IMG/VR virus record: IMGVR_UViG_3300030339_000025
Reading direction: 5' to 3' (one strand)
DNA: 64,000 nt
DNA from: a virus
A program made the position numbers and the translations under genes. Of the stretch, positions 5,248 through 27,652 are shown one piece after another. How positions within the stretch are numbered: position 1 is the first letter of the stretch; each line of letters begins with the position of its first letter. Under the pieces are notes generated by a model. That model was not told the origin of the DNA, did not search any database, and saw only the letters and a program-made list of their open reading frames with translations.

Positions 5248-5254
5248 TTATTTT

Positions 5255-6184: not shown

Positions 6185-6196
6185 ATTTAATTTCTT

Positions 6197-6541
6197 TTAT
6201 TTGTGTCCTTTATAAAGTTTTACAGAGTCTTCAATTAGTGATTTTCCTTCTATAATTGATTTTTCCATCATTCTATTAATAGCCTCTACATATTTTGGCC
6301 TTTTTTGTTTAAAACAAATGTCAATTTTTCTTTTTAAGTCTGCAATTTCTATATCTGATGTTGATGATCCAATTGCATCTTCTAAATACCACATTCTACA
6401 ATGTAATATAGATAATTTTTCTATAACTTCACCAATATTATCAGTCTCAATAATATCTGACGGCATATCTACTTTTATTGATTTATTTAATGTATTATTA
6501 ATTGTTTCTTTAATAATATCTTCTATTCGTTCTCCTATCAT
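6197..6541 (-). CDS. hypothetical protein in glycan operon
   Basis: 114-aa ORF between fcl and DegT-like gene. Confidence 0.3.
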   Translation of the reverse strand: MIGERIEDIIKETINNTLNKSIKVDMPSDIIETDNIGEVIEKLSILHCRMWYLEDAIGSSTSDIEIADLKRKIDICFKQKRPKYVEAINRMMEKSIIEGKSLIEDSVKLYKGHK

Positions 6542-6542
6542 G

Positions 6543-7697
6543 TTACATATTTTTATTTATTATATCACAAATATACTCTACTTCTTTTAGACCTATATCT
6601 GGATTATTTGGTACATATAGACCATATTTATCTACTATATCTGCAAAGTTAAAAGATTGCTTTCCATATATTTTTATCCAATAAGGTTGATTTCCAATAG
6701 ATCCACAGATTAATGGTCTACAATCAACTCCACCTTTATTTAATTCTTCTGCAATTTTTTTTCTATTTGGATGAATTATAGGATAAGCAAAATTTGAAAT
6801 GTATGTATTTGGAAGATCAGTTATCTTCCAGTAATCATTTTTAATTAATGCATTATAATAGTAATAATTATATTGTCTTATATTTACAATTTTATCAACT
6901 TTATCTATTTGATTTATACCTATGAATGCCTGCAAATCAGTTGATCTTAGATTAAATCCAGGATAATAGAATGTATATAAATCTTTAAATTCATCTATTT
7001 CAAATCCTTTTTTTAATTTTGATTTAAACGAATCATCTAAATCCCTATTCCATCCGTGAGCCCTAATAGATTTTAAAATGTTATATAATTCATAGTCATC
7101 TGTTGTGATCATTCCGCCTTCTATTGTTGATAAATGATGGCCAAAATAGAATGAAAATGAACTCATTAAACCAAATGATCCAGTTTTTATTCCATTATAA
7201 GTTGAACCAATACTTTCACAAGAATCTTCTAACAAAATAATATTATTTTGATCACATAATTCTATTATTTCGTTCATTTTATTTGGAAATCCTAGCACAT
7301 GAACCAATATTACAACAGAAGGATTGTATTCTTTGATTAATCTTTTTAAATCATTAATATCTAAACCAAGTGTTTCTTTATCACATTCACAAAGAATAGG
7401 CGTTAGTCCAAATTGAATAATTGGAGTTACTGTTGTTGTCCATGATACTGCTGGTACTATAATATTATTATTTTTCAATTTACCAGAAATTAATAAACTA
7501 TAAATCATAGCAAGATTTGCTGATGAACCAGAATTAACATATACTGAATATTTTCTATTTTGATATTTAGAAAATTTTTCTTCAAATTCTATAGTAAGTT
7601 TATTCTTGGTAAGAATTGGATTTGTTTTTAACCATTCTATTAAAAGATTAATATCATTAGCATCAATAGTATCCTTAACTAAAGTTATTCGATTCAT
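6543..7697 (-). CDS. DegT/DnrJ/EryC1-family PLP/PMP enzyme, His-variant (ColD/E1-like sugar 3-dehydratase candidate)
   Basis: DegT-family fold signature; position of the usual PLP-lysine reads FSFYFGHHLSTIEGG (HH instead of K), the hallmark of GDP-4-keto-6-deoxymannose 3-dehydratase ColD / AscC. Confidence 0.65.
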   Translation of the reverse strand: MNRITLVKDTIDANDINLLIEWLKTNPILTKNKLTIEFEEKFSKYQNRKYSVYVNSGSSANLAMIYSLLISGKLKNNNIIVPAVSWTTTVTPIIQFGLTPILCECDKETLGLDINDLKRLIKEYNPSVVILVHVLGFPNKMNEIIELCDQNNIILLEDSCESIGSTYNGIKTGSFGLMSSFSFYFGHHLSTIEGGMITTDDYELYNILKSIRAHGWNRDLDDSFKSKLKKGFEIDEFKDLYTFYYPGFNLRSTDLQAFIGINQIDKVDKIVNIRQYNYYYYNALIKNDYWKITDLPNTYISNFAYPIIHPNRKKIAEELNKGGVDCRPLICGSIGNQPYWIKIYGKQSFNFADIVDKYGLYVPNNPDIGLKEVEYICDIINKNM

Positions 7698-9641: not shown

Positions 9642-10842
9642 TTATATTTAATGTTTTTAATATAGATTTATAAACTTGATCTGGCGTTGGATGGCATTCA
9701 TACGTTAATTTATTTAAATAACAAATACCAGATTTTAATATTTGAGTACTATTGGTTTGATCAATTGATATTTTTGGATTTGCTAGGCATTCAGCTTGAC
9801 ATATACCTCTAACATAACTTAAATTATAATTTTCTATTCCTTTCCTTTTTCTATAATAACTTGTGTCCCAAGATGTTGACAATTCTGTAATATGATTATC
9901 TAAATTACAAAGTGATAATATATATAATCCATTATTCATAGTTACAAATGTTTTACTTTTATTTATTATATGATAAGCTTGTGAAATTGTATTTTGACAA
10001 GGATTATTTAATAAATTTAATCCATTTTTAATTTGAATATTAGAAAATTTTTTTGTTAGATTAGAATCTAAATATGTTTCTTTTCCTATTGCAACTATTG
10101 GAATATGCTCTTGTATTAATTCTATAAATTTTTGCCAATTGTTGTGACCCCAAGTTCTTTCAGGTTCTGTTTCAGATGGATTTATACAAATAAAATTTTC
10201 AGGTAAATTTTTAATATTCTCAAAAGGATCTGGATAAAATTCCATATCAAGTTCATTTGATTTTAATTGAAATCCACAATTATATGCACAAATTTGTTTA
10301 TGATCTATCAATCTCCAATTTGTATTCATAAGATTAAATAAGTGATGTATATCAAAATTAGTATCAAATGAATCTAATAATTGATTTAAATTATTATTTA
10401 TTTGTATAATTTTCTCAATATATGGATTATTAATAAATGCTGATGATATATAGGTTAATATTATAATCTTTTGATTATATATTTCTGACATTTTTTTTAT
10501 TGTTGGCGTTGCTGCTAAATTATCACCAATACCAACTTCTGAATGTAAAACTAAAACTTGCTTTTTTATTTTTTGATTATAAATAGTTTTAAAATTAAAA
10601 AATTGATCCTTAATTATATTATTGTTATATATAATCTCAACCTTTAACCCCTTTAATTCACTTAATTGTGTTGTTGAATACCATAATTCATTATGATCAA
10701 AAAAAGATAATGTACTATATAATAATATTGTACTATTATTATAAGAATTCCAATCATATAAATTAATTTTAGCTTTTAAAGTATAATCACAAGAGATATA
10801 TGTTTTGTTTTCATCTAAATTACATCTTACATTAAAATTCAT
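9622..10842 (-). CDS. glycosyltransferase, GT9 (heptosyltransferase)-like
   Basis: VLVLHSEVGIGDNLAATPTIKK resembles GT9 N-terminal GD...TP motif; weak. Confidence 0.35.
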   Translation of the reverse strand: MNFNVRCNLDENKTYISCDYTLKAKINLYDWNSYNNSTILLYSTLSFFDHNELWYSTTQLSELKGLKVEIIYNNNIIKDQFFNFKTIYNQKIKKQVLVLHSEVGIGDNLAATPTIKKMSEIYNQKIIILTYISSAFINNPYIEKIIQINNNLNQLLDSFDTNFDIHHLFNLMNTNWRLIDHKQICAYNCGFQLKSNELDMEFYPDPFENIKNLPENFICINPSETEPERTWGHNNWQKFIELIQEHIPIVAIGKETYLDSNLTKKFSNIQIKNGLNLLNNPCQNTISQAYHIINKSKTFVTMNNGLYILSLCNLDNHITELSTSWDTSYYRKRKGIENYNLSYVRGICQAECLANPKISIDQTNSTQILKSGICYLNKLTYECHPTPDQVYKSILKTLNINENTLF

Positions 10843-10846
10843 TTAT

Positions 10847-11598
10847 TTAATTTTTTATATTTTTTAATGCATCATTATAAAATTCTTCAACTCTCTCACT
10901 ACCAATATAACAACACTTTTTGTTTATGCAAGCTTTTGCCGTTGTGGAGATGCCAGAAAATGGATCATATATTAAAGATTTTTCAGGAAAATAGATATGA
11001 ATTAATTTTTCAACTAATTCACTTGAGTATGTTGCTTTTAGTTTAGTTTTAAAGCCATCATTATTTTTAGCTTCTATTAAATTAGTATAGTTTTTATAGA
11101 AATTTTGACCTGTTTTTTCATTAATTGTACTGATTTCTTTATTTGTTATAAAATCATGTAAATGGTTTTTTTTAACAATAATATATATTAATTCGCAAAT
11201 TCTACTCAATTTTGTTGGAGAGGTCTGGAATGGTATACTGGTTTTTTTTTTTTCCAGCTTATCACATCTGCTAGTGTTAAGTTGGTTTGTTTATGTACCT
11301 CTGAGATAAGTAGTTGAGGCAATATTGGATTTTCATTGTGATATGAAATATTGTAACATATCACACCATCATCTTTTAAGATCCTTTCAAATTCTTTAAA
11401 TTCGTTTAATCTTATTGATAAATATTCATCTTCTGGTAAGCCATCTGTTTCAGAATATCCATTATTATAATAACAATCATTTCTTTTACTACATATTGAA
11501 TAAGGTGGAGATGTTATAATTCCAGATATAAATTTATCTGACATTCTATTCATGGTAGTTAAATTATCTTCATTATAAATTTTATTTATTTCTATCAT
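10847..11598 (-). pseudogene. beta-class DNA (N6A/N4C) methyltransferase split in two ORFs at a 12-nt poly(A) tract
   Basis: ORF 11206..11598 carries motif IV SPPY. ORF 10847..11209 carries motif I DPFSGISTT, has a TTG start, and is 1 nt out of frame. A12/T12 homopolymer at 11242-11253 lies just upstream of the frame break. Confidence 0.55.
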
Positions 11599-11798
11599 TA
11601 ATATTTTATGTTTATATATAAAAAATGAATAAAAAAGTTTTATATATACTTATAAATAAAGAATAATAAATATGAAAACAAAAAAAACATTCACAATAGA
11701 TGAAAAACTTTGGAAAAAATTTGAAATTATTTCTAATAAATTGTCTATCAATAAATCATTATATTTTGAAAATTGTATAAAAAAATTAATAAAGGAAA

Positions 11799-12926
11799 AT
11801 GATAATTCAGAAAACGATAAAATTTAAAGTAAATAGTAAAGATATAAAATATTACAATAATTTAGGTTATAATATAAATTCATGTGTTGAAATAGAAATA
11901 CCCATAATAGATTTACAAAAAGGTAGTTGTAGAAAAATAAAAGTTAAGTGCGATATATGTGATGATGAAAAAATGTTATCTTATGCCATGTATAATATGA
12001 ATATTAAAAAAACTAATATTTATTGTTGTTGTGAAAAATGTGCAAATATTAAACGTGAAAAAACAAATATTAAAAAATATGGTAAGAAATATCAAGTTGA
12101 AACTGATAATTTTAAAATTAAATCTAAGAAAACAAAATTAGAAAAATATAACGATGAAGGTTATACAAATAGAGAGAAATATATTGAAACATGTGAAAAA
12201 AAATATAATTGCATTAATGTTTTTCAAACAGATGAAGTTAAAGAAAAGTTAAGAATAACAAAAAAGGAGAAATATGATAACGAAAGCTATAATAATTATA
12301 ATAAAATTAAATTAACAAAAAAAGAAAAATATAATGATGAAAATTATAATAATCATGAAAAATATGTTGAAACCTGTTTAGAGAAATATAATGTGGATAA
12401 CACATTATCACTTATAAATAAAGAAGATAGAATAAATAATATTAAGGAATGGTTTAAAAATAATCCAGAGGAACGTATAAAACGAAAAATATGGATGGCA
12501 TCTGATAAATTTAAACAAAAATCTAAAAAAACATGCGTAGAGAGATATGGCGTAGACCATCCTATGCATCTTGATTCAGTTGTTTTAAAAAATCATATAT
12601 CTGGATATTGGCTGAAAAAATATAAAGATACAGAATTATATTATAGAGGAACATATGAACTTAATTTTTTAGATAAATACTATAATAAAATAGATATTAA
12701 TAATTGTAAATCATTATATTATATTTTTAATAATAAAAAAAGAAAATATTATCCTGATTTTTTTATTGAAAGTTTAAATTTGATAATTGAAATAAAATCT
12801 ACATACACCTATAATAAGTTTTTAGAAATGAATTTAGAAAAACAAGCAGAATCTATAAGAAGTGGATTTAATTTTATATTTATTATAGATAAACATTATA
12901 CAGAATTTGAAAATTGTTTAAAATAA
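11799..12926 (+). CDS. putative PD-(D/E)xK nuclease with N-terminal Cys-rich region and internal EKYNDExYNN repeats
   Basis: C-terminal YYPDFFIESLNLIIEIK fits PD...ExK; ~2.5 internal ~40-aa repeats (TKKEKYDNESYNN...). Confidence 0.35.
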   Translation: MIIQKTIKFKVNSKDIKYYNNLGYNINSCVEIEIPIIDLQKGSCRKIKVKCDICDDEKMLSYAMYNMNIKKTNIYCCCEKCANIKREKTNIKKYGKKYQVETDNFKIKSKKTKLEKYNDEGYTNREKYIETCEKKYNCINVFQTDEVKEKLRITKKEKYDNESYNNYNKIKLTKKEKYNDENYNNHEKYVETCLEKYNVDNTLSLINKEDRINNIKEWFKNNPEERIKRKIWMASDKFKQKSKKTCVERYGVDHPMHLDSVVLKNHISGYWLKKYKDTELYYRGTYELNFLDKYYNKIDINNCKSLYYIFNNKKRKYYPDFFIESLNLIIEIKSTYTYNKFLEMNLEKQAESIRSGFNFIFIIDKHYTEFENCLK

Positions 12927-12961
12927 AAAAGAGACTATTTTGAAAATAATCTCTTTTTTTA
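12923..12961. terminator. bidirectional rho-independent terminator between convergent genes
   Basis: inverted repeat gagactatttt-ga-aaaataatctc flanked by A-run and T-run. Confidence 0.6.
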
Positions 12962-12974
12962 TATTATTAATTTA

Positions 12975-15900
12975 TTAATTAAATAGGTATTTAATACCAA
13001 ACATCATTTGCCATCTTGAACTAATACCTGTTGAATTTTGGTATGGTTGAGTAAATGGAGTTGTTCCTGTCTGGAATGGAAGCGAAAATGAAGGAGTTTT
13101 TCCATCTGCAGCGAGACCTTCATATTTTAATATGTTAGTAGCTGTAGGAATTTTAACAACACCCCAATCTCTGTTAATTAAGTTTCCAGCATTAATCATA
13201 TCCACTGAAAACTTAAGTGTGTGTGTCTTAAATTTAATATCTTGTGTAATATTTAAATCTAAGTGACTAAAGTATGGCGCTACAGTTGCATTTCTTTTAG
13301 AGTATTGACCCCTGTGAGTATTAAGATAGGTTGAATTAGAAATAAAAGCGTCTAATTGTGACCAAATTTGTGCAGATGTTCTTGTGTCAGTAACACCTGT
13401 TGTAATTGTACCTAAACCTCCAGAGCCGACTTTAACTAGGTTGATGTCAGCAATTGTTTTTGGAATATACATCAAGTCATTACCTGAATTACCATCACCA
13501 TTTAAGTCACCATTATAAACATATGAATTTACACCGTTATTAGTTAATTCGTAAATTGCTCCAAATGTTGTAGCAAGATATTTTCCTTCATTTAGTTTGT
13601 AAGCGAAGTTGGCAATAAGTCTGTTTGGCTGATAATATGACGCATAACCCAAATTAGCCGCATTAGGATCCTGATTAGAAACAGGTACTGCACTCCATAA
13701 TGACGAGGCTGTTGATCCATATTCTGCGGTGTTCTTGGATACTGAACGTGTGTATGCTATACCATAGGCTAAATTTTCAGTAGTTCTTTGAATTTTTGCA
13801 GTCAAAGTGTAAACATAGCCTTTACTTGAATTACTCATTAAAATTGCATTACCTATATTAGGATTTTCTAAGGTCGCTGTTGGCGTTCCTGCATAATATT
13901 TGTTAGTATTTGCAACCGAAGTTAAGTAACGGGTTCTGTTATCAACACCACCTAATGCAAATCCGTTGGACTCATTTAAATTTATGTTAGAGTAATAAAC
14001 TGCATTAATGTCTTGTGTATAATTGTATTCAGCGCCAATCATCCAGCCATCTTCCAATCTCTTATCAATAGCTAAAGATGACTTCCAAGCTGTTGGATAT
14101 TTAAAGTTGCTAGAAACCAAAGCAGTACTATAAGAAGCATTAGCAGATCCAGCTGTTGGTCTTAAAGCATTAGGATCAACATTAAACGCTGTTTTGTTAG
14201 CTGCATTGGTGAATGAACCAAATTGAATACCATTGTTTGAAGCCTGGTTAGAAATCCAAACGAATGGTGGAGGTCCTGCGAAGATACCAGTACCTCCTCT
14301 GACTTGTAATGTTTTATCACCTTTAGGATTCCAGTTGAAACCTAATCTTGGTGAAACAATAATATTATTCATTGGAGCTTTACCAATGTTATAAGTCGAT
14401 CCATCTTTGAATTTTAATGCATCAAATGTTGGATTATCTGTCATTGACTGTTTGTAGAAGGTTTCATCAAGTCTCAAGCCAAAAGTTAAGGTGAAATCAT
14501 TTGATACTTTCCACTTATCCTGTATGAACTGAGATAATTCTGTTGATCCGGCATTAGCCCAAGGAAATTCACCATTAGGTAAAGCTGAATATTGCAAGTA
14601 GTATGATTTAGCATTTAACTTTCCGTTTTTTGCTGAATTATAAAAGTCTGTCAAGCTATTGAATTGATAAACACCTTGATAACCAGGCGCAAATGCGTTT
14701 TGATATTTTTTAATTGAGTTTTGAGTACCTACTGTGAGTTCATGCGCACCTTTATAATAAGTTAAGATGTCATTTAATTGATAAACGTCTGTATTCAATA
14801 CGTTATTGTAAGTGTACATTTCGTAACCAAAGGTTGTATAAATATTACCATTGTTTAAAATATCAACTAATGGGAAAGTTCCACTACTAGAATGAGGAGA
14901 ACGGAAATCTCTCAATGCAGTATAACCAATTTGTAATTTATTTGATAGCCTATTATTGAAATGAGTATTCAATTCAGCAATAAAAATATTAAAGTTATTA
15001 TTGATTACATAACCACTACCATAGAAAGGCATTGAATAGGTACCTGGCTGCCCACCAGTTGTTTGACCAGAGCCTGGTCTTGAAGTAGATGCAAATTGAT
15101 CGGATGATGATTTTAAGTAGTTGTATTTTAATGTAAAAGTATTCTTACTATTAATGTTCCAGTCTAATTTTGCAGTAATTTTATCAGAATAGGTTTTGAA
15201 AGTATAACCTTGAAAAGCACCTGGATCATATCCAAACTTGGTCTTTAAGAAACTAGATAAAGCTGATAAAGTGTCAGCGTTTGCTTGAGAATAGTTTCCA
15301 CCAGCAGCATGAGATGCGTCTGAAGGCAGCATGGAAGTCGCTGGTGCATCTTGTCTAACTTGTTCTCCACTTACGAAGAAAAATAATTTGTCTTTGATAA
15401 TTGGACCTCCTAAACTAAATCCTTTGATAGAATAATCAAAAGGAGTTTTTACAACTGTTGTTGGACCAACATTGTAACCTAAATAATTTTCATTCCTAGA
15501 ATATTGATAAATAGTTCCTTTGAAAGTATTTGTTCCACTTTTAGTTACGGTGTTAACGCCTGTTCCAGCAAATCCACCTTGCTTAACATCATATGGTGAT
15601 ACGTTAACTTGAATTTGTTCAATAGCTTCTAATGAAATTGGTTGTGCGGATGTTTGTCCACCTAAGATAGATGATAGACCAAATGAGTTATTAAAATTAG
15701 CTCCATCAACTGTCATATTATTATATTGACTACTTCTGCCGCCAATATTCAATCCTTGGGAGGTAGGTTCTAATTTTACAAAATCTTGAATTGAACGATT
15801 TATTGTTGGTAAACGATCAACTTGAGCTCTTGTTATTAACTCCTGAGAACCAGTTCTTGAACTACTAAATGTCTTGTCTTGAACGCCTTTTACAATAACT

Positions 15901-16250
15901 TCTCCTACTTGGATCGCTTCATCAGTAAGTTCAAAATTTTGTTTAAATGTTTGACCTAAATTCAGAAAGATATTGTTTATTTTTTCTGATTTAAGTCCAA
16001 CAAAAGCTGTTGTTAAAGTATATGGCCCACCAATTTTTAAATTTGGTAAGTTATAACGACCATCAGTTCTAGTCGTTGTCATATACTTAGTGCCTGTTGG
16101 AACATGAACTGCCATTACTACAACATCTTGTAATGGCGACTTGCCTTCTAAAATTGTTCCTGAAATTTCAGAAGTGGTTTCTTGTGATTTTGCTATTATT
16201 GAAAACAATATAAGCATTATCACTAACATCACTCTTTTTAATTTTCTCAT
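12975..16250 (-). CDS. TonB-dependent outer-membrane receptor, SusC/RagA-like
   Basis: Signal peptide MRKLKRVMLVIMLILFSIIA. Carboxypeptidase-regulatory-like N-domain, plug and a large beta-barrel. C-terminal ...GIKYLFN aromatic terminus. Confidence 0.8.
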   Translation of the reverse strand: MRKLKRVMLVIMLILFSIIAKSQETTSEISGTILEGKSPLQDVVVMAVHVPTGTKYMTTTRTDGRYNLPNLKIGGPYTLTTAFVGLKSEKINNIFLNLGQTFKQNFELTDEAIQVGEVIVKGVQDKTFSSSRTGSQELITRAQVDRLPTINRSIQDFVKLEPTSQGLNIGGRSSQYNNMTVDGANFNNSFGLSSILGGQTSAQPISLEAIEQIQVNVSPYDVKQGGFAGTGVNTVTKSGTNTFKGTIYQYSRNENYLGYNVGPTTVVKTPFDYSIKGFSLGGPIIKDKLFFFVSGEQVRQDAPATSMLPSDASHAAGGNYSQANADTLSALSSFLKTKFGYDPGAFQGYTFKTYSDKITAKLDWNINSKNTFTLKYNYLKSSSDQFASTSRPGSGQTTGGQPGTYSMPFYGSGYVINNNFNIFIAELNTHFNNRLSNKLQIGYTALRDFRSPHSSSGTFPLVDILNNGNIYTTFGYEMYTYNNVLNTDVYQLNDILTYYKGAHELTVGTQNSIKKYQNAFAPGYQGVYQFNSLTDFYNSAKNGKLNAKSYYLQYSALPNGEFPWANAGSTELSQFIQDKWKVSNDFTLTFGLRLDETFYKQSMTDNPTFDALKFKDGSTYNIGKAPMNNIIVSPRLGFNWNPKGDKTLQVRGGTGIFAGPPPFVWISNQASNNGIQFGSFTNAANKTAFNVDPNALRPTAGSANASYSTALVSSNFKYPTAWKSSLAIDKRLEDGWMIGAEYNYTQDINAVYYSNINLNESNGFALGGVDNRTRYLTSVANTNKYYAGTPTATLENPNIGNAILMSNSSKGYVYTLTAKIQRTTENLAYGIAYTRSVSKNTAEYGSTASSLWSAVPVSNQDPNAANLGYASYYQPNRLIANFAYKLNEGKYLATTFGAIYELTNNGVNSYVYNGDLNGDGNSGNDLMYIPKTIADINLVKVGSGGLGTITTGVTDTRTSAQIWSQLDAFISNSTYLNTHRGQYSKRNATVAPYFSHLDLNITQDIKFKTHTLKFSVDMINAGNLINRDWGVVKIPTATNILKYEGLAADGKTPSFSLPFQTGTTPFTQPYQNSTGISSRWQMMFGIKYLFN

Positions 16251-16311
16251 ACTTAATTTTTGATTTTTTTTGTTAATTAATTTTAATTTGATTTTTATAT
16301 AAAAAAAATGT

Positions 16312-16327
16312 TGTAGTTTAAACTACA
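16312..16327. promoter_or_regulatory. perfect 16-bp palindrome upstream of TonB receptor gene (candidate operator)
   Basis: tgtagttt|aaactaca, within larger near-palindrome aaaatgttgtagtttaaactacatttt, ~65 bp upstream of start at 16250. Confidence 0.3.
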
Positions 16328-16421
16328 TTTTTCATTTTTGAAGAATTTTCTCTGATTATTTTATCTTTAATTTTTTTAAATGTTTAATATTATTATAATT
16401 TTTATTTATTTTTTAACATTT

Positions 16422-16661
16422 TCATTTATAAGATTGTAACATTTTTAATTTTTCAACTCTATTTTTTTTAAATAAAAGAGGACAAAAATCAGGAGTTATT
16501 TTATCAGGTCCGATATTACCTAACATTAATTGTGGACCATTTTTCGTTATAATTATATTTTTATGATAGCAAGAATATGGATTTTTTATATAAAGATTGA
16601 CTTTTTTTAAATGCTCACAATCTTTGCAAGAAAAAACTTTTATTAAAATTGGGCCTTTCAT
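16422..16661 (-). CDS. small Cys-rich protein, paralogue of 16658..16924
   Basis: MKGPILIKVFSCKDCEHL...ITPDFCPLLFKKNRVEKLKML; tandem duplicate. Confidence 0.4.
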   Translation of the reverse strand: MKGPILIKVFSCKDCEHLKKVNLYIKNPYSCYHKNIIITKNGPQLMLGNIGPDKITPDFCPLLFKKNRVEKLKMLQSYK

Positions 16662-16924
16662 TTTAATTTTTTTAATTTTTCAACTCTATTTCTTTTAAAT
16701 AAAAGAGGACAAATGTCAGGTGTTATTTTATCATACCTTATTGGGCATACAAAAAATGTACTACAATCTGGATATTCTAATTTTAGTTCATCTTCTTGTA
16801 TAACTATATCTTTATGATTACATAGATATGGTGGTTTTTGGATTGAAAAATTAAGTCCTGTAGTATCTACTAAATGAATACAATCTTTGCAAGAAAAAAT
16901 TTTTATTAATATTGGTCCTTTCAT
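16658..16924 (-). CDS. small Cys-rich protein, paralogue of 16422..16661
   Basis: MKGPILIKIFSCKDCIHL...ITPDICPLLFKRNRVEKLKKLK. Confidence 0.4.
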   Translation of the reverse strand: MKGPILIKIFSCKDCIHLVDTTGLNFSIQKPPYLCNHKDIVIQEDELKLEYPDCSTFFVCPIRYDKITPDICPLLFKRNRVEKLKKLK

Positions 16925-18199
16925 TTAGATATTTTTTATTATTTCAAGTGCTTTATTAGCAGAATTCTTCCAAGAAAATTCAGTTCTAATTAATTCTGAA
17001 TCTTCTAAAGCTTTCTTTTTATATTTCCAATAATTAACATAAACATCTCTCATCACTTTAGACAAATCATCAAAATCTGGTTCATAATAATTTCCTACAC
17101 CATTTGGTATAGGTTTTTCATCTAATATTTTAATTGGATGACCTTTTCCTTTTGCAAATTCTAATTGAGCACTACAGTTAGAATATATTGATGGTGTGCC
17201 ACAAGCCATAGATTCACACAATGGAAGATTCCAGCCTTCTGATCTTGAACAAGATAAAAATACATGACCATTTTTTAAATAATTAACATAATCTTGTCTA
17301 TTTACAAAATGTAAAATTTTTAATCTATTATCTTTAAAATTATAATGATTTAATCTTTCTTCTGTTGTTTTTAAACCATCATTACTATAATCAGCATTAT
17401 CTACTGCTAATATTAAATCAACTGGTTCTTCTGGCTTGAATGTTTTTAGAAATGTTGAAATAATTTCTGTTGTGGCTTTTCTATATTCCCATCTTCCAAA
17501 TAATACAAATTTGAATCTATTATCTTTATACATATCTAAATTATAATTAAAAAAATCTGGATTAAATATAGAATCATCAACAGCTTCAGGAACAATAAAA
17601 ATTTTATCTGTTGGATAACCTTGTTCTATAGCACATTGTTTTTGCCATTTTGATGGACACCAAAATTGATCAAATTTTTTAAGTATTTCAAAGAAAGTGT
17701 TATCATATTTTGTTGATTCCCAAACATTATATGCTATTTTAAATCCAGTATATTTATCAAGGCAATAATAATAATGGTGATTAGTTTCACTTAAAAGTAA
17801 ATCTATTTTTGATAAATTTGAATATTTTGCTTCTTCATTAACTTCATAATCACATAATCCAGATCCATAACTATTTTTTGATCCTTGATTACAATATAAA
17901 GTTTGTATATTTATTAGTTTTCTCTGATAATCAGTAATATATGTTTCTTTTGAGTGAGGATCATTATATCTACCATTTGAGTTAATTGATCCTAGTCCAT
18001 TCCAAGTTTTTCCTACTGTAAAATTTCTAATTTTTAATGGTGTTTTATAACTTAATGCGGTAAAGAAATCTCTAGCGTGTGCATTATAACCTGTTTGACC
18101 AATAAAACTTGTATGCCCTTGTATAAAAAAATCATTCATTTTTATTTTTTTATTTTTATAATTAATCCAAACATTGGAATTGAAAAATTGGATATCCAA
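16925..18199 (-). CDS. glycosyltransferase family 1 (GT4-type)
   Basis: C-terminal SRSEGWNLPLCESMACGTP motif (E-x7-E GT1 signature). Confidence 0.6.
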   Translation of the reverse strand: MDIQFFNSNVWINYKNKKIKMNDFFIQGHTSFIGQTGYNAHARDFFTALSYKTPLKIRNFTVGKTWNGLGSINSNGRYNDPHSKETYITDYQRKLINIQTLYCNQGSKNSYGSGLCDYEVNEEAKYSNLSKIDLLLSETNHHYYYCLDKYTGFKIAYNVWESTKYDNTFFEILKKFDQFWCPSKWQKQCAIEQGYPTDKIFIVPEAVDDSIFNPDFFNYNLDMYKDNRFKFVLFGRWEYRKATTEIISTFLKTFKPEEPVDLILAVDNADYSNDGLKTTEERLNHYNFKDNRLKILHFVNRQDYVNYLKNGHVFLSCSRSEGWNLPLCESMACGTPSIYSNCSAQLEFAKGKGHPIKILDEKPIPNGVGNYYEPDFDDLSKVMRDVYVNYWKYKKKALEDSELIRTEFSWKNSANKALEIIKNI

Positions 18200-20181: not shown

Positions 20182-20637
20182 ATGAAGTATTTAAAAAAAT
20201 ATGAAAATTTTAATAAGACCACTTATTATGAGTTTGATGCTATTAAATTTTATAATGATTTCAAAAAAATATTTCATAATGAAAGAGATAACAATTTTAG
20301 GTCTACTGATTTTTTTAAAAATTTAGACAAGTTAGTACCTAACTGGTTAACAGTTCCATTAGATGATACAGTTGAGAAATTAATTCAAGATATACTTATA
20401 AAAAATAGAAAAGTTGTATTTGTTGGTTTAAATGGTGATTTATATGATGGTAAAGTTACATATGTTAAATTTTTTTATTCGGTTTTTTTTAAAAAAATTA
20501 CTTATTCAATAATATTAGATGAAAAAAATAAGTTTATTGATGTTGATTTTACTAAACCAGTTAAGATATATGGAGAACCAACAGAAATAGAAAATATTGT
20601 TGATTTATATTCAAATACAAATAAATATAATATATGA
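20182..20637 (+). CDS. MKxIKxFE/KYNI-family protein (array 1, member 1)
   Basis: MKYLKKYENF...KYNI; stop fused to next start. Confidence 0.55.
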   Translation: MKYLKKYENFNKTTYYEFDAIKFYNDFKKIFHNERDNNFRSTDFFKNLDKLVPNWLTVPLDDTVEKLIQDILIKNRKVVFVGLNGDLYDGKVTYVKFFYSVFFKKITYSIILDEKNKFIDVDFTKPVKIYGEPTEIENIVDLYSNTNKYNI

Positions 20638-21122
20638 AATATTTAAAAAAATTTGAAATATTTGCTACAAATCCAAATCCAAGATTAGATGATCTTAAAA
20701 AGTTATTAAGTCATTTAGTAGAAATGTTTAAAGAATTAGGATATTATCATTTGCCAAAATATGATGAATTTGAATATGTTAATAATTTTTTTAGTAATAA
20801 AATAGGTTTATTTAGTCATTTAGACCGTGGACATCCTGGACATAATTGCTTTGATATTAATGGTGAGTTTTCTAATTCATTAATATTTTTATCAATTACA
20901 GAAAGAATTGGAAGTACAAATGATGATTTAGCAAATTTTATTCCTGAATATTTTAAAACTATAAAAGGATTAAAATTACATAGTGAAGATAATATGTTTT
21001 TTCAGGTAAATTTTGAAGTTGTTGATAATGTTGATAATATAATAAATAAAATATCAATAGAAGATTTTAAACAAAAATTACAATTAAAAAATATAATATA
21101 TGAAACATATAAAATTATTTGA
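20634..21122 (+). CDS. MKxIKxFE/KYNI-family protein (array 1, member 2)
   Basis: MKYLKKFEIF... Confidence 0.55.
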   Translation: MKYLKKFEIFATNPNPRLDDLKKLLSHLVEMFKELGYYHLPKYDEFEYVNNFFSNKIGLFSHLDRGHPGHNCFDINGEFSNSLIFLSITERIGSTNDDLANFIPEYFKTIKGLKLHSEDNMFFQVNFEVVDNVDNIINKISIEDFKQKLQLKNIIYETYKII

Positions 21123-21363
21123 AAATATAGATGATAAAAAACTTATCATTATGAGAGGTGATGATTGGGAAGGAGTTTATTATAATGGTAAATTATTATA
21201 TCAAGGACATTCTATTCGTTGGGATGAGGTATTAAAAAAATTAGGATATAATATAACGTCTAATTATATTGAAGATGATGATTGGGAGAATCTTAACTGG
21301 TCTTTATCAGAAAATATAGAAGATGTAGAAATGATAATAAATTCTAAAAAATATAATGTATAA
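21100..21363 (+). CDS. MKxIKxFE/KYNI-family protein (array 1, member 3)
   Basis: MKHIKLFENI...KYNV. Confidence 0.55.
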   Translation: MKHIKLFENIDDKKLIIMRGDDWEGVYYNGKLLYQGHSIRWDEVLKKLGYNITSNYIEDDDWENLNWSLSENIEDVEMIINSKKYNV

Positions 21364-21366
21364 AAT

Positions 21367-21672
21367 ATGAGATATATAAAAACATTTGAATTTTTTTCAA
21401 CTGAAACAGGGCAAGCATTAGATTATGAAGAAGGTGATATTGTGATTTGTTCTGATGATAAATACAATCCGACAGGTAAATATTTCGCAATAGATAAAGG
21501 TGATAAATACAAAGTTCTAAAAATATATAAATTGCCAGAAGATAAATTTTTAAAAAAAGATTATATGAGAGTTGATGTTGTAAATTTAGAAACTAATGAA
21601 ATTACAAAGGGTTGGGAGTCAACAAGATTTAAGACGACCCTTGAATTTGATGTTGATAAATATAATTTATAA
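21367..21672 (+). CDS. MKxIKxFE/KYNI-family protein (array 1, member 4)
   Basis: MRYIKTFEFF...KYNL. Confidence 0.55.
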   Translation: MRYIKTFEFFSTETGQALDYEEGDIVICSDDKYNPTGKYFAIDKGDKYKVLKIYKLPEDKFLKKDYMRVDVVNLETNEITKGWESTRFKTTLEFDVDKYNL

Positions 21673-21675
21673 AAT

Positions 21676-21966
21676 ATGAAACATATAAAAAAATTTGAAA
21701 ATGTGTATTCCATAAAAAAAGATAACTTATCTATTTTCAAAAATAAATATAAAGATTTTAAAGAAGGTAAATATGTTAAATTTAATGCTAATATTAAGTT
21801 TAATTTGGATGATTATGATGAGATTTTTAGAATAGATTCAATTTCTGAACCAACTTTGCAAGTCTGGGTAAAGTCACTTGAAACAAATAATCATCATTGG
21901 ATTTTATTAAAAAATTTACGATTATTAACAGAATTAGAATTAAATGCATTAAAATATAATATATAG
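21676..21966 (+). CDS. MKxIKxFE/KYNI-family protein (array 1, member 5)
   Basis: MKHIKKFENV...KYNI. Confidence 0.55.
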   Translation: MKHIKKFENVYSIKKDNLSIFKNKYKDFKEGKYVKFNANIKFNLDDYDEIFRIDSISEPTLQVWVKSLETNNHHWILLKNLRLLTELELNALKYNI

Positions 21967-21969
21967 AAT

Positions 21970-22164
21970 ATGAAACACTTAAAAACATTTGAAAATTTAT
22001 TTCCTGAGATTAATCCAATAGAATTTGTTGCACCTACAAGAGAGCATCCATCATATAAAAATGAAGAAAGAAAGAAAAAAAGAAAAAAAATTGGTGAAAT
22101 TGAGCCAGTTATGATGCCGCCTAATCACACAAAAGATGTTATTTCATTTAAAGGAAAGCCTTAA
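21970..22164 (+). CDS. MKxIKxFE-family protein (array 1, member 6; short, basic tail)
   Basis: MKHLKTFENLF... Confidence 0.45.
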   Translation: MKHLKTFENLFPEINPIEFVAPTREHPSYKNEERKKKRKKIGEIEPVMMPPNHTKDVISFKGKP

Positions 22165-22177
22165 ATATAATAAAAAA

Positions 22178-22912
22178 CTATATATAATTTAATTTTAAAT
22201 TACCATTATAATCTTCTATTATATAACTACAGTTTTCAATAAAATCACCAGTGTTATAATATTCATGTTTTATTATTTTAGGTGAATGTGTATGCCCCAT
22301 TAATATAGAATTGCAATTTACTTCTTTAAGTTTTAGTTTAGAAATTTTTTCATATTCATTAATATATTTAATAGCATTTTTAACTTTTGATTTTAGATAG
22401 GATGAAAGACTCCAATAATTAAGTCCAAATATTTTTCTAAAAAAATTATATACTTTATTTATTTTTATTGATAATTCATATGCGGTATCACCTAACCAAT
22501 ATATAAATGTATGCATTCTAATAAATCCATCAAATTGATCACCATGAGTTATGTATATTTTTTCAGTTTCAGTTTCATATATATAGTCATCACAAATTAA
22601 TATATTGCCAAGATAAATGTTAGTACTGTCTATTATATTTCTTATATACATATCATGATTACCAATTATATAATATATATTAACATCTTTAGAATATTTT
22701 AAAATTTTTTGTATAACTTCTAAGTGCGTTTCATTCCAACTAAATTTTTTCCTTTTCATATAGGTCATATCTATAATATCACCTATTAAAAAAAGATTTT
22801 TAAATTCATATTTTTTAAATACTTCTAATATTTTATCTGCCTGAGAGTTTTTATTTCCTAAATGTAAATCACTTATAAATAGTGATTTTATTTTTATTTT
22901 TTCTTGTTTCAT
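22178..22912 (-). CDS. calcineurin-like metallophosphoesterase (LpxH-like)
   Basis: FISDLHLG ... IGDIID ... GNHD motifs. Confidence 0.55.
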   Translation of the reverse strand: MKQEKIKIKSLFISDLHLGNKNSQADKILEVFKKYEFKNLFLIGDIIDMTYMKRKKFSWNETHLEVIQKILKYSKDVNIYYIIGNHDMYIRNIIDSTNIYLGNILICDDYIYETETEKIYITHGDQFDGFIRMHTFIYWLGDTAYELSIKINKVYNFFRKIFGLNYWSLSSYLKSKVKNAIKYINEYEKISKLKLKEVNCNSILMGHTHSPKIIKHEYYNTGDFIENCSYIIEDYNGNLKLNYI

Positions 22913-27343: not shown

Positions 27344-27652
27344 TTATAAATTATATTTTCTTATATAATCATATTCATATTTTAATTCTTCAGCATATTT
27401 CCAAAAACTTTCTATTGGCACCCAATTATCTTCTTCTTCTTTAAATTTTGTATAGGTAGTTTCACCAATATGTCGTCTATCTCCAGTTGACCAAATTCCT
27501 TTATCTTCAACATAATGTACCGAACCTTCTTTTATAAAGGTGATTCTATTTAACCAATGATATGATCTATGAGCAGTTATCGTTATATCTGATTTTTTGT
27601 ACCAATATCTTTCACCAAATTCATTTAACCAATATTTTTTATCTTCAGTCAT
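27344..27652 (-). CDS. hypothetical protein
   Basis: 102-aa Trp/Tyr-rich ORF. Confidence 0.3.
   Translation of the reverse strand: MTEDKKYWLNEFGERYWYKKSDITITAHRSYHWLNRITFIKEGSVHYVEDKGIWSTGDRRHIGETTYTKFKEEEDNWVPIESFWKYAEELKYEYDYIRKYNL

What the first reader, a model, noticed from the sequence alone, without database searches (positions are those of the whole stretch)
12975..16330. Complete SusC-type TonB-dependent receptor with upstream 16-bp palindrome inside a mobile-element-like region
A full-length, signal-peptide-bearing outer-membrane transporter (1091 aa) is isolated between convergent terminators and small phage-like genes. A perfect palindrome tgtagtttaaactaca lies ~65 bp upstream and may be an operator. 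A virus- or phage-carried TonB-dependent receptor would be an unusual auxiliary gene, perhaps for nutrient uptake, superinfection exclusion or a receptor decoy. Alternatively it marks the window as a genomic island of a Bacteroidota bacterium.
Basis: partly seen in the sequence, partly recalled or inferred. Interest (0 to 1): 0.7.

Follow-up and report, generated by a model that had tools for sequence, protein, structure and literature searches.

The report
Host-derived outer-membrane transporter in a huge phage
A very AT-rich, probably huge bacteriophage of peat and freshwater Bacteroidota carries an intact copy of its host's TonB-dependent outer-membrane transporter. The gene sits in a fixed genome slot that related phages have refilled several times with other host versions, so it looks like a selected accessory gene rather than an accident.

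Summary
The ORF (12975-16250, minus strand, 1091 aa) and the 16-bp palindrome (16312-16327) are real.

- **Not SusC-type.** The protein is an Oar-type TonB-dependent transporter: signal peptide, CarboxypepD_reg extension, TonB box, plug and PF25183 barrel. It has no SusC/RagA model hit and no SusD neighbour.
- **The window is phage DNA.** It is 24% GC with 111 short ORFs, an endolysin, homing endonucleases and T4-like accessory genes. Its best relatives are 460-735 kb metagenomic megaphages.
- **The gene came from the host.** It is 94% aa / 90.7% nt identical to chromosomal genes (nadA-TBDT-hisS synteny) of Prolixibacteraceae-like bacteria, some from the same samples. Homology stops at the ORF ends.
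- **It is maintained by selection.** On the phage branch dN/dS is about 0.06, and GC3 lies between host and phage values.
- **It occupies a conserved slot.** At least six related phage contigs carry a TBDT after the same glycosyltransferase. The copies are polyphyletic among bacterial alleles, and one phage holds a different paralogue (33% identity).
- **The palindrome is probably not an operator.** It fits best as the intrinsic-terminator hairpin of the preceding gene.

Phage TBDRs have been noted before only as annotations. The repeatedly reloaded cassette is new. What the protein does during infection remains an inference.

The parts
12975..16250 (-). Intact 1091-aa Oar-type TonB-dependent transporter gene, derived from the host
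   Evidence: ORF. Pfam PF13620 + PF07715 + PF25183. 94/92/91% aa identity to chromosomal bacterial genes. Gene GC is 0.339 against 0.247 for the other ORFs, and GC3 is 0.213 against 0.133.
16185..16250 (-). Codons 1-22: signal-peptide-like N-terminus (MRKLKRVMLVIMLILFSIIAKS)
   Evidence: Read directly from the translation. The bacterial orthologues have the same pattern. No signal-peptide predictor was run.
15924..16166 (-). N-terminal extension, CarboxypepD_reg domain (aa 29-109)
   Evidence: PF13620, E 6e-13, 49.3 bits against a cut-off of 32.3. This is the only confidently folded part of the AF2 model (pLDDT 74-80).
15885..15905 (-). TonB-box-like motif GEVIVKG (aa 116-122)
   Evidence: Position found. 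Conserved as (G)EV(I/V)V in the orthologues. It lies at the same place as the mutated TonB-box residues E118/I122 of Myxococcus Oar (PMC6434023).
15555..15845 (-). Plug domain (aa 136-232)
   Evidence: PF07715, 25.7 bits against a cut-off of 23.9.
13173..15548 (-). Beta-barrel domain (aa 235-1026)
   Evidence: PF25183 OMP_b-brl_4, E 3e-53, 181.8 bits.
12967..16281 (-). Maximum extent of DNA homologous to the bacterial chromosomal gene: the ORF plus at most 31 nt upstream and at most 8 nt downstream
   Evidence: blastn against five bacterial loci. Identity is 90.3% to L022, and the match starts 8-31 nt before the ATG and ends 1-8 nt after the stop.
16301..16327 (-). The reported palindrome (16312-16327), then ACA and T8 (16301-16308): a weak intrinsic-terminator-like hairpin ending the upstream 79-aa gene
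   Evidence: Unique in the window. Folds at -7 kcal/mol, z -1.7. Related phages L109, L124, L126 and L130 have hairpins with other stems and loops at the same position, each followed by a T-run; in L109 and L124 the T8 ends 45-49 nt before the ATG.
16294..16302 (-). TTATATAAA: candidate phage promoter element for the transporter gene, ending 44 nt before the ATG
   Evidence: T8-ATATAAA is conserved in L109 and L124, with close variants in L107 (T8-ATAAAA) and L131 (T7-ATAAAC). TATATAWA occurs 29 times in intergenic DNA against 8.6 +/- 3.3 in shuffles, often 5-50 nt before start codons. Promoter function is inferred.
12925..12959 (.). Bidirectional terminator hairpin between the transporter gene and the convergent DUF7487 gene
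   Evidence: -14.3 kcal/mol (z -4.7) on the minus strand and -9.9 kcal/mol (z -2.65) on the plus strand. Equivalent hairpins with different stems occur in L109, L107 and L131, each followed by conserved TTTATTT(T/A)(A/T)AAACATTTT.
16422..16924 (-). Two paralogous small Cys-rich phage genes (79 and 88 aa) directly upstream; the 79-aa gene is the one the palindrome terminates
   Evidence: ORFs. A homologue sits between the glycosyltransferase and the TBDT in L109, L124, L126 and L130.
16925..18199 (-). GT1/GT4 glycosyltransferase that marks the upstream side of the conserved TBDT slot
   Evidence: PF00534 and phrog_2170. Its homologue precedes a TBDT in L107, L109, L124, L126, L130 and L131.
11799..12926 (+). 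Convergent DUF7487 / homing-endonuclease-like gene on the downstream side; absent at this place in L109
   Evidence: PF24308, phrog_12131 and phrog_15137. No homologue was found in L109.

Best explanation
The ORF is a functional, host-derived Oar-type TonB-dependent outer-membrane transporter. It is carried as a self-contained expression cassette (a moron, or auxiliary gene) in a very AT-rich, probably huge phage that infects Prolixibacteraceae-like Bacteroidota in peat and freshwater sediments.

Shown:
- The gene lies in phage DNA. It occupies a conserved slot downstream of a glycosyltransferase and is flanked by phage terminators.
- It is nearly identical to a vertically inherited chromosomal gene of the presumed host.
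- It has evolved under strong purifying selection while drifting towards phage base composition.
- The slot has been refilled more than once with different host alleles, and once with a different paralogue.

Inferred:
- During infection the gene is transcribed from a phage promoter (TTATATAAA).
- The protein is exported and inserted by the host Sec/BAM machinery and energised by host TonB-ExbBD.
- It keeps up or raises the outer-membrane transport, or other envelope function, that the host orthologue provides over a long megaphage infection cycle. It may act together with the neighbouring phage genes for GDP-fucose, heptose, lipid A and glycosyltransfer.

The 16-bp palindrome is the terminator hairpin of the preceding 79-aa gene and not an operator.
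For: Phage context:
- The window is 24% GC and 93% coding, with 111 ORFs and no tRNA or housekeeping genes.
- It has a glucosaminidase endolysin, endonuclease VII, three GIY-YIG/NUMOD3 endonucleases, Dam and N6/N4 methylases, and T4 gp30.3, Y16D, Pnk and RNA ligase.
- The 803-aa MVP-like protein matches only LR756500/501/503 (50-53% identity over its full length). Other proteins match best LR7565xx, LR745206, Lak phages and Tenacibaculum phage pT24.

Not a chimera: the identical protein with identical flanks occurs on at least 15 contigs from JGI and ENA samples.

Host origin:
- P0003-P0006 (91-94% aa) lie in the nadA-TBDT-hisS-sigma70-ychF synteny at 37-38% GC. P0005 comes from the same samples as the phage.
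- The nearest GTDB species are Tangfeifania (88%) and a Marinilabiliales MAG (84%).
- Homology is confined to the ORF.

Selection and amelioration:
- On the phage branch dS is about 0.28 and dN about 0.017.
- There are 78 synonymous against 5 non-synonymous phage-private codon changes.
- GC->AT to AT->GC changes are 42:31 on the phage branch against 22:55 on bacterial branches (Fisher p 5e-4).
- Only 17 phage-private residues exist. The alignment's invariant columns are invariant across all 42 sequences, the four phage copies included.

Conserved slot and repeated reloading:
- A TBDT sits at the same locus in L107, L109, L124, L126, L130 and L131.
- The phage copies are polyphyletic. L107 groups with bacterial L119 at 99-100% bootstrap, the window copy falls inside the L022/L024 clade, and L109 groups with L121/L028 at 97%.
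- GC3 of the phage copies runs from 0.13 to 0.21, which suggests different residence times.
- L131 carries a 33%-identical paralogue between the same flanking motifs.

Envelope-gene neighbourhood: Gmd (above the curated cut-off), near-cut-off matches to GDP-fucose synthase (Fcl) and GmhA, weaker RfbH/PseC-like and LpxH-like matches, and GT1 and GT2 glycosyltransferases.
Against: - No expression or protein data exist, and the promoter assignment rests on a motif only.
- No capsid, portal or terminase gene lies on the 75-76 kb contig, so 'huge phage' rests on shared non-structural proteins.
- The substrate of the host orthologue is unknown. There is no riboswitch, no SusD and no informative operon.
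- Part of the low dN/dS on the 'phage' branch may have accumulated in an unsampled bacterial donor.
- At least one fairly close relative (L138) and one distant relative (L136) have no TBDT downstream of the glycosyltransferase, so the gene is not indispensable.
- The structure model was too poor (pLDDT 51) to confirm the barrel or to map the substitutions.
Confidence: 0.6

Rival explanations
1. Receptor-related role. The host orthologue is the phage's own adsorption receptor. The phage-borne copy would then exclude superinfecting phages (an altered or excess receptor, or a changed envelope together with the glycan genes), act as a decoy, or spread sensitivity to neighbouring cells through membrane vesicles.
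For: - TBDTs are classic phage receptors (FhuA, BtuB, FepA; established knowledge).
- The slot tracks the local host's allele, and in one phage a different paralogue. That is what would be expected if the identity of the surface protein matters.
- The gene sits among surface-glycan and LPS genes.
Against: - Only 17 phage-private residues exist, and dN/dS is as low as among bacterial orthologues (0.06-0.09). Nothing suggests a diverged, non-permissive variant.
- Making more of one's own receptor would trap progeny on cell debris. Known phages do the opposite (T5 Llp blocks FhuA; established knowledge).
- There is no evidence for what this phage's receptor is.
Confidence: 0.2
2. Neutral passenger. 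The gene is a recently captured piece of host DNA with no function for the phage.
For: - Identity to host genes is very high (90.7% nt).
- GC is well above the flanks.
- The relatives L138 and L136 lack it.
Against: - The gene is intact in every copy seen.
- Phage-private changes are 78 synonymous against 5 non-synonymous.
- A TBDT sits at the same slot in at least six other related phage contigs. Some are fully ameliorated (GC3 0.13 in L130), which implies long residence.
- A non-orthologous TBDT occupies the same slot in L131.
Confidence: 0.08
3. The upstream palindrome is an operator for a dimeric regulator (Fur-, Crp- or AraC-like, or a phage repressor) that controls the transporter gene.
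For: - It is a perfect 16-bp palindrome, unique in 64 kb, lying 61 nt upstream of the ATG and directly abutting the promoter-like TTATATAAA.
- The arms GTGTAG / CTACAC are partly conserved in relatives.
Against: - It lies outside the host-derived DNA, so it is not the host gene's regulatory box.
- It does not recur anywhere in the window.
- In relatives the two arms are separated by 4 to 9 nt and carry compensatory or G-U changes, and each hairpin is followed by a T-run. Variable spacing fits a hairpin and not a fixed dimer site.
- It sits at the 3' end of the preceding gene.
Confidence: 0.1
4. The window is a genomic island or ordinary chromosome of a Bacteroidota bacterium, or an assembly chimera joining host and phage reads.
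For: - The gene is bacterial in origin and richer in GC than its flanks.
- No virion genes are in the window.
Against: - Both junctions are reproduced in at least 15 independent contigs and several samples.
- The junction motifs are conserved in related phages from other environments.
- The flanks are 24% GC against 37-41% in the bacterial contigs.
- There are no housekeeping genes. The gene content and best hits are phage.
Confidence: 0.03
5. The carrier is a giant virus of eukaryotes (Nucleocytoviricota) that picked up a bacterial gene.
For: - GC is very low.
- The window has ankyrin, RCC1 and major-vault-protein-like proteins and many small paralogous families.
Against: - It has a peptidoglycan hydrolase/endolysin, bacterial-type hairpin+T-run terminators, Dam-type methylases and T4-type accessory genes.
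- Its best matches are 'uncultured phage' megaphages, Lak phages and a Tenacibaculum phage.
- It has exchanged the gene repeatedly with one bacterial family.
Confidence: 0.02

Closest known systems
Putative TonB-dependent receptor ('SusC') annotated in marine megaphage Mar_Mega_1 and in LR745206 (Michniewski et al. 2021, PMC9723777)
   Same: - A TBDT gene carried by a huge phage that the present window's proteins also resemble (LR745206 and LR7565xx hits).
- It was proposed as an auxiliary gene for uptake.
   Different: - That report is an annotation-table entry without evolutionary analysis.
- tblastn with this protein finds no match in those records at E<=1e-5, so the genes are not close relatives.
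- Here the protein is Oar-type and not SusC, is up to 94% identical to a host chromosomal gene, and sits in a conserved slot that has been reloaded repeatedly.
Cyanophage psbA/psbD (Sullivan et al. 2006, PMC1484495)
   Same: A host-derived gene for a membrane protein, kept under purifying selection in a phage lineage, with base composition between host and phage and repeated host-phage exchange.
   Different: - The cell compartment and function differ: an outer-membrane transporter against a photosystem core.
- No expression data exist here.
- The slot can also hold a non-orthologous paralogue.
- Clear intragenic mosaics were not demonstrated.
Myxococcus xanthus Oar and the Oar subclass of TBDTs (Gomez-Santos et al. 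2019, PMC6434023)
   Same: - Same architecture: signal peptide, CarboxypepD_reg N-terminal extension, TonB box, plug and barrel.
- This architecture dominates in Bacteroidetes.
   Different: - Relatedness to Oar itself was not tested.
- Oar exports the protease PopC, and nothing here indicates export.
- No substrate is known for this orthologue group.
SusC/RagA transporters of polysaccharide utilisation loci
   Same: A Bacteroidota TBDT with an N-terminal carboxypeptidase-regulatory-like extension.
   Different: - There is no hit to the NCBIfam SusC/RagA model.
- The barrel matches PF25183 and not the usual TonB_dep_Rec family.
- No SusD partner is present in the phage or the host.
Outer-membrane protein morons of lambdoid phages (Lom, Bor, the Lc/NmpC porin of PA-2). 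Established knowledge, not checked here.
   Same: Phage-borne genes for host-type outer-membrane proteins, organised as separate transcription units with a composition unlike their flanks.
   Different: - Those are small barrels, porins or lipoproteins of temperate coliphages, expressed from prophages.
- This is a 1091-aa TonB-dependent transporter in a probably lytic huge phage, with no integrase in view.
Receptor-masking superinfection exclusion, e.g. T5 Llp blocking FhuA. Established knowledge.
   Same: It involves a TonB-dependent transporter and a phage-encoded envelope protein.
   Different: Llp is a small lipoprotein that inactivates the receptor. Here the phage encodes a near-normal copy of the transporter itself.

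Membership tests
TonB-dependent transporter (TBDT) | Cleavable N-terminal signal peptide | tested here: met
   MRKLKR, then VMLVIMLILFSIIA, then AKS/QE, read from the translation. The bacterial orthologues show the same pattern. Judged by inspection only, with no predictor.
TonB-dependent transporter (TBDT) | TonB box just before the plug | tested here: met
   GEVIVKG at aa 116-122, conserved in the orthologues. It corresponds in position to Oar E118/I122. The evidence is at motif level.
TonB-dependent transporter (TBDT) | Plug domain (PF07715) | tested here: met
   25.7 bits against a cut-off of 23.9, aa 136-232.
TonB-dependent transporter (TBDT) | 22-stranded beta-barrel | tested here: inconclusive
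   The barrel family PF25183 matches at 181.8 bits. The AF2 model has a mean pLDDT of 51, so strands could not be counted. No PDB relative was found by sequence.
TonB-dependent transporter (TBDT) | Transport depends on TonB-ExbBD and the proton-motive force | not testable with these tools
   Needs experiment.
Oar subclass of TBDTs | CarboxypepD_reg (PF13620/PF13715) N-terminal extension before the plug | tested here: met
   PF13620, 49.3 bits, aa 29-109. The subclass definition is taken from PMC6434023.
Oar subclass of TBDTs | Protein export function (PopC-like substrate) | not testable with these tools
   No candidate substrate was identified.
SusC/RagA family | Match to the SusC/RagA family model (NCBIfam TIGR04056) | tested here: not met
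   No NCBIfam family matched at E<=0.01.
SusC/RagA family | Adjacent SusD-like lipoprotein gene | tested here: not met
   The phage neighbours are a 79-aa gene and DUF7487. The bacterial neighbours are nadA and hisS, or a second TBDT.
Phage auxiliary gene / moron | Lies inside a viral genome with viral genes on both sides, reproducibly | tested here: met
   At least 15 contigs share the same flanks. The flanks have phage gene content, and syntenic relatives are in IMG/VR.
Phage auxiliary gene / moron | Closest homologues are cellular genes in a vertically inherited context | tested here: met
   91-94% identity to genes in the nadA-TBDT-hisS synteny.
Phage auxiliary gene / moron | Own terminator and promoter; composition unlike the flanks | tested here: inconclusive
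   Terminator hairpins lie on both sides. Gene GC is 0.339 against 0.247 for the other ORFs. The promoter is only a conserved, enriched motif. The sigma-70 consensus scan was no better than shuffles.
Phage auxiliary gene / moron | Expressed during infection and beneficial to the phage | not testable with these tools
   Only indirect support is available: dN/dS of about 0.06 and conservation of the slot.
Huge (>200 kb) phages related to LR7565xx megaphages | Genome longer than 200 kb | not testable with these tools
   The longest contigs are 75-76 kb.
Huge (>200 kb) phages related to LR7565xx megaphages | Shared proteins with that group | tested here: met
   The MVP-like protein is 50-53% identical over its full length to LR756500/501/503 only. 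Further hits fall on LR756500-504, LR745206, LR756511 and Lak phages.
Huge (>200 kb) phages related to LR7565xx megaphages | Virion hallmark genes (capsid, portal, terminase) | tested here: not met
   None was found in the window. Pfam covered the whole window and PHROGs its first half. None appears in the precomputed Pfam annotation of the about 11 kb beyond it either. The contig is only part of the genome, and the second half was not scanned with PHROGs.
Palindromic operator of a dimeric regulator | Fixed half-site spacing conserved in relatives; recurrence at co-regulated genes | tested here: not met
   The site is unique in the window. The separation between the arms varies from 4 to 9 nt among relatives.

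The most novel reading that the evidence does not exclude
The slot is a host-tracking surface-protein cassette. This lineage of huge phages would always carry a copy of a dominant TonB-dependent transporter of its current host, perhaps the very protein it adsorbs to, and would swap it by recombination with the host chromosome when it changes host. The copy could be used for superinfection exclusion, envelope remodelling, or spreading sensitivity through vesicles. As a side effect the phage would shuttle transporter alleles between Prolixibacteraceae species.
Probability: 0.15. Interest if true: 0.85.

Novelty: new variant of a known kind. Interest (0 to 1): 0.62.

Why it matters
- **Host link.** It gives a concrete, sequence-based host assignment (Prolixibacteraceae / Tangfeifania-like Marinilabiliales) for an uncultured lineage of very AT-rich, probably huge phages from peat and lake sediments.
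- **A wider range of auxiliary genes.** Host-derived auxiliary genes kept under selection can include large outer-membrane transporters. Such a gene can occupy a dedicated genomic slot that is refilled from different hosts, an envelope counterpart of the cyanophage psbA story.
- **Testable questions.** TonB-dependent transporters are both nutrient gates and common phage receptors. A phage that carries and exchanges them raises two questions: whether phages manipulate uptake or their own receptor landscape, and whether they spread transporter alleles among bacteria.
- **A practical handle.** The phage and host alleles differ by about 10% in nucleotides, so existing metatranscriptomes could tell them apart.

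Tried and rejected
**Searches that found nothing**
- Megablast of 25 kb against GenBank phages gave no match.
- tblastn of the protein against phages found only two short gut-metagenome contigs at 30-40% identity.
- There are no tRNA genes.
- NCBIfam gave no hit for the transporter, and PADLOC gave none for it or seven neighbours.
- Rfam at gathering threshold found no riboswitch in the window or upstream of four bacterial orthologues, so there is no clue to the substrate.
- PDB sequence searches with the protein and with a 42-sequence profile found nothing.

- The AlphaFold2 model from 42 close homologues was poor (mean pLDDT 51, plug about 22). No fold search was run and substitutions could not be mapped to loops. 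Deeper alignments could not be submitted because only close homologues were returned.
- The sigma-70 promoter scan found 44 sites against 41 in shuffles, so it carries no information. The built-in terminator scan misses these AT-rich hairpins.

**Ideas tested or set aside**
- Mosaic test: the first 150 nt of the gene are as close to the L109 phage copy as to the nearest bacterial allele (0.85 against 0.86), and elsewhere the bacterial allele usually wins. This is suggestive of a 5' crossover but not significant.
- The different TBDT in L131 is not the orthologue of the second TBDT next to the bacterial gene in L001 (37% identity).
- A single-protein scan of IMG/VR with the glycosyltransferase returned only the two contigs already known.
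- Two literature searches for other virus-encoded SusC/TonB genes were dominated by irrelevant matches.
- The second half of the window was not scanned with PHROGs.

Full report
**1. The observation**

An uninterrupted ORF runs from 16250 to 12975 on the minus strand (ATG start, 1091 aa). The palindrome TGTAGTTTAAACTACA lies at 16312-16327, with 61 nt between it and the ATG. It is unique in the window even with two mismatches, where 0.03 matches are expected by chance. On the coding strand it is followed by ACA, then T8, then ATATAAAAATC.

**2. What the protein is**

- Pfam finds CarboxypepD_reg (aa 29-109; 49.3 bits), Plug (136-232; 25.7 bits, cut-off 23.9) and OMP_b-brl_4 PF25183 (235-1026; 181.8 bits).
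- A TonB-box-like GEVIVKG sits at residues 116-122.
- This is the Oar architecture described by Gomez-Santos et al. (PMC6434023), who also note that it dominates in Bacteroidetes.
- It is not SusC/RagA. NCBIfam returns nothing at E<=0.01, and there is no SusD-like neighbour in the phage or in any bacterial orthologue locus.
- No solved structure is related by sequence.
- An AlphaFold2 model built from 42 close homologues was too poor to use (pLDDT 51).

**3. What carries it**

The window is 24.9% GC and 93% coding. It has 111 ORFs averaging about 180 aa, no tRNA and no housekeeping genes.

Pfam and PHROGs find the following:
- a Dam methylase and a split N6/N4 methylase;
- three GIY-YIG/NUMOD3 homing endonucleases and endonuclease VII;
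- a glucosaminidase endolysin and a cREC_REC domain;
- NUDIX, CYTH, T4 gp30.3 and RNA ligase;
- a cold-shock protein, cytochrome c, ankyrin and RCC1 repeats, and a major-vault-protein-like protein.

The about 11 kb of contig beyond the window adds T4-type polynucleotide kinase/phosphatase and Y16D, but no virion genes.

The 803-aa MVP-like protein matches, over its full length at 50-53% identity, only the 462-735 kb 'uncultured phage' records LR756500/501/503. Pooled queries of other window proteins hit best LR756500-504, LR745206, LR756511, Lak megaphages (RNA ligase 58%) and Tenacibaculum jumbo phage pT24.

I therefore read the window as a fragment of a large, probably huge, phage of Bacteroidota. 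Genome size and virion genes remain unverified.

**4. Not an assembly artefact**

The identical protein occurs on at least 15 contigs from several JGI and ENA peat or fen metagenomes. It always lies between the same glycosyltransferase / small-gene pair and the DUF7487 gene.

**5. Origin of the gene**

- All close non-identical homologues whose context I read lie in bacterial contigs of 37-41% GC. These are P0003 (94%), P0004 (92%), P0005 and P0006 (91%), P0019 (88%) and P0033.
- All of these except P0019 (88%; different neighbours) have nadA upstream. P0003-P0006 share the fuller synteny aminotransferase - nadA - TBDT - hisS - sigma-70 - ychF.
- P0005 contigs come from the same samples as the phage contigs (3300030943, 3300031521, ERZ27249843).
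- Among GTDB species representatives the nearest are an uncultured Tangfeifania (88%) and a Marinilabiliales MAG (84%). Named hits are Prolixibacteraceae and Mariniphaga.
- Nucleotide homology to the bacterial loci starts 8-31 nt before the ATG and ends 1-8 nt after the stop. The palindrome and the putative promoter are therefore phage sequence.

**6. Selection and amelioration**

- The gene is 90.7% identical in nucleotides to the nearest bacterial allele.
- Three-point branch lengths give the phage branch dS of about 0.28 and dN of about 0.017, so dN/dS is about 0.06. Bacterial orthologues compared with each other give 0.08-0.10.
- At codons where four bacterial alleles agree, the phage has 78 synonymous and 5 non-synonymous changes.
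- GC->AT against AT->GC changes are 42:31 on the phage branch and 22:55 on two bacterial branches (Fisher p = 5e-4).
- GC3 is 0.213 in the phage gene, 0.27-0.29 in the nearest bacterial alleles and 0.133 in the other phage ORFs.
- Only 17 residues are private to the phage copy.

The gene has therefore spent time in the phage under purifying selection. How the branch divides between an unsampled donor and the phage is unknown.

**7. A conserved slot that has been reloaded**

- IMG/VR contigs L109 (74 kb) and L107 (57 kb) are syntenic relatives. Their flanks are 24-26% GC and their proteins are 36-95% identical to the window's. Each has a TBDT directly after the glycosyltransferase homologue.
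- A metagenome scan with the glycosyltransferase adds L124, L126 and L130 with the same order, GT - 79-aa gene - TBDT (81-85% identity). L131, from activated sludge, also has a TBDT directly after the glycosyltransferase.
- L138 and the distant L136 have no TBDT there.
- The phage copies are not monophyletic. L107 groups with bacterial L119 at 99-100% bootstrap. The window copy falls inside the L022/L024/L013/L001 clade. L109 groups with L121/L028 at 97%. L126 and L130 are each other's closest relatives.
- Their GC3 ranges from 0.133 (the phage background) to 0.213.
- L131's TBDT is a different Oar-type paralogue. It is 33% identical to the window's. It is 70-73% identical to proteins of Mariniphaga, Sunxiuqinia and Saccharicrinis, and 85-86% to unnamed metagenomic proteins. 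It is nevertheless bounded by the same motifs: a T-run plus ATAAA upstream, and a hairpin plus TTTATTTATAAACATTTT downstream (compare).
- Another IMG/VR contig of 170 kb (L110), with a ClpB-like ATPase, an RNA-repair HAD domain and an M23 peptidase, carries a 39%-identical TBDT.

The simplest reading is long-standing carriage of a TBDT cassette in this lineage, with repeated replacement from hosts. This is formally like cyanophage psbA (PMC1484495). A clear intragenic mosaic was not demonstrated.

**8. The palindrome and the flanking signals**

- The palindrome folds weakly (-7 kcal/mol, z -1.7).
- At the same position L109 has TAGGTGTAGTTG..AACTATACCTA plus U8 (-19.8 kcal/mol, z -6.8). L124 has a shorter version. 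L126 and L130 have ACAGGTGTAA..TTACA(T/C)CTGT plus U5.
- Loops range from 4 to 9 nt. In the window, L109 and L124 the T8 run ends 45-50 nt before the ATG.
- Conserved pairing with variable sequence and spacing, at the 3' end of the 79-aa gene, points to an intrinsic terminator and not an operator.
- Directly after it, T8-ATATAAA is conserved in L109 and L124, with close variants in L107 and L131. TATATAWA is enriched in intergenic DNA (29 observed against 8.6 +/- 3.3 in shuffles) and often lies 5-50 nt before start codons. I take it as a candidate phage promoter. This is an inference.
- The 3' hairpin (12925-12959; -14.3 kcal/mol, z -4.7) is bidirectional and has equivalents in the relatives.

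**9. Function**

What is shown is an intact, selected, host-matched transporter cassette in a phage. It lies within about 15 kb of genes for the following:
- GDP-mannose dehydratase (above the curated cut-off);
- a protein scoring just under the cut-off for GDP-fucose synthase;
- an RfbH/PseC-like aminotransferase;
- GT1 and GT2 glycosyltransferases;
- a near-cut-off GmhA match;
- a weak LpxH-like phosphoesterase.

I infer that the phage supplies the protein during infection to maintain or raise the envelope or transport function of the host orthologue. The substrate is unknown. No riboswitch was found, and there is no informative operon.

The main rival is a receptor-related role (exclusion, decoy or sensitisation). 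The host-tracking pattern fits it, but the near-normal sequence does not argue for it.

**10. Comparison with the literature**

Michniewski et al. [quoted passage not shown] I found no other report in the searchable library.

Virus carriage of a TBDT is therefore already known at annotation level. Three things appear new:
- the Oar-type, near-host-identical gene;
- the evidence for selection;
- the conserved, repeatedly reloaded slot.

**Verdict**

This is a real feature and a new variant of a known kind, of moderate to high interest.

Noticed in passing
window 20182-22164, 27344-27652, 34210-37657, 42620-43416, 44463-45490: Seventeen mostly small ORFs share an N-terminus of the form MK(Y/H)IK.(F/Y)E and/or a C-terminus K(Y/F)N(I/V/L/M). 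They lie mostly in tandem arrays on the plus strand. This is a large paralogous family of unknown function with no Pfam hits (apart from a methyltransferase domain in 36498-37319).
   Followed up: partly
window 30782-33193 (-): An 803-aa protein has major-vault-protein repeat and shoulder / SPFH domains. Its only relatives in the phage collection are in the 462-735 kb megaphages LR756500/501/503 (50-53% identity over the full length). Its role is unknown.
   Followed up: partly
L109 7217-9559 (glycosyltransferase homologue of window 16925-18199): In the related phage the glycosyltransferase ORF is 780 aa instead of about 404. It carries an in-frame insertion of about 370 aa between the conserved halves, which looks like an intein.
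   Followed up: no
window 10847-11598 (-) and 11799-12926 (+): The N6/N4 DNA methylase is split into two overlapping ORFs (120 and 130 aa), each hitting PF01555. Next to it lies a DUF7487 / homing-endonuclease-like gene that L109 lacks. This suggests a mobile endonuclease insertion beside the TBDT slot.
   Followed up: no
window 4249-7697, 16925-18199, 22178-23601, 26771-27343: A cluster of envelope-glycan genes lies in the phage: Gmd, a near-cut-off Fcl (GDP-fucose synthase) match, an RfbH/PseC-like aminotransferase, GT1, GT2, an LpxH-like phosphoesterase and a near-cut-off GmhA match. It may form a host-surface remodelling module around the transporter gene.
   Followed up: partly
window 60285-62609 (+): A 774-aa protein is made of about 12 RCC1 repeats, and local GC is higher (about 0.30). 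An incomplete 480-aa ORF follows in the longer contig.
   Followed up: no
intergenic regions throughout the window, e.g. 3278, 11621, 29009, 34197, 42607, 52813, 60255: The motif TTATATAWA / TATATAWA is enriched in intergenic DNA (29 observed against 8.6 expected) and usually lies 5-50 nt upstream of start codons. It is a candidate phage promoter element, distinct from the T4 late TATAAATA, which is not enriched.
   Followed up: partly
L018 13070-14236 (same contig, about 3 kb beyond window position 1): A 388-aa phage protein carries a CarbopepD_reg_2 domain, the same fold class as the transporter's N-terminal extension. Nearby are a 685-aa pentapeptide-repeat protein and a DUF6808 protein. 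These may be virion or adsorption proteins.
   Followed up: no
L005 447-866: One population variant of the phage contig carries an IS200-type Y1 transposase gene that the other variants do not show at that place.
   Followed up: no
L131 7235-7310: Upstream of the non-orthologous TBDT in the activated-sludge phage there is a tandem duplication of a roughly 29-bp hairpin-forming unit (ACTTATAAATTATATTTATAAGTGAATTT, twice).
   Followed up: no
L110 (IMGVR_UViG_3300035670_010555, 170 kb) 9974-13222; also L111-L117: Other IMG/VR contigs carry more distant Oar-type TBDTs (27-39% identity). L110's flanks look like a jumbo phage (ClpB-like ATPase, HAD_SAK_2, M23 peptidase). TBDT carriage may recur among large Bacteroidota phages.
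   Followed up: partly
L001 13846-17157: In one bacterial relative a second Oar-type TBDT (1103 aa, 35% identical) has been inserted between the orthologue and hisS.
   Followed up: partly
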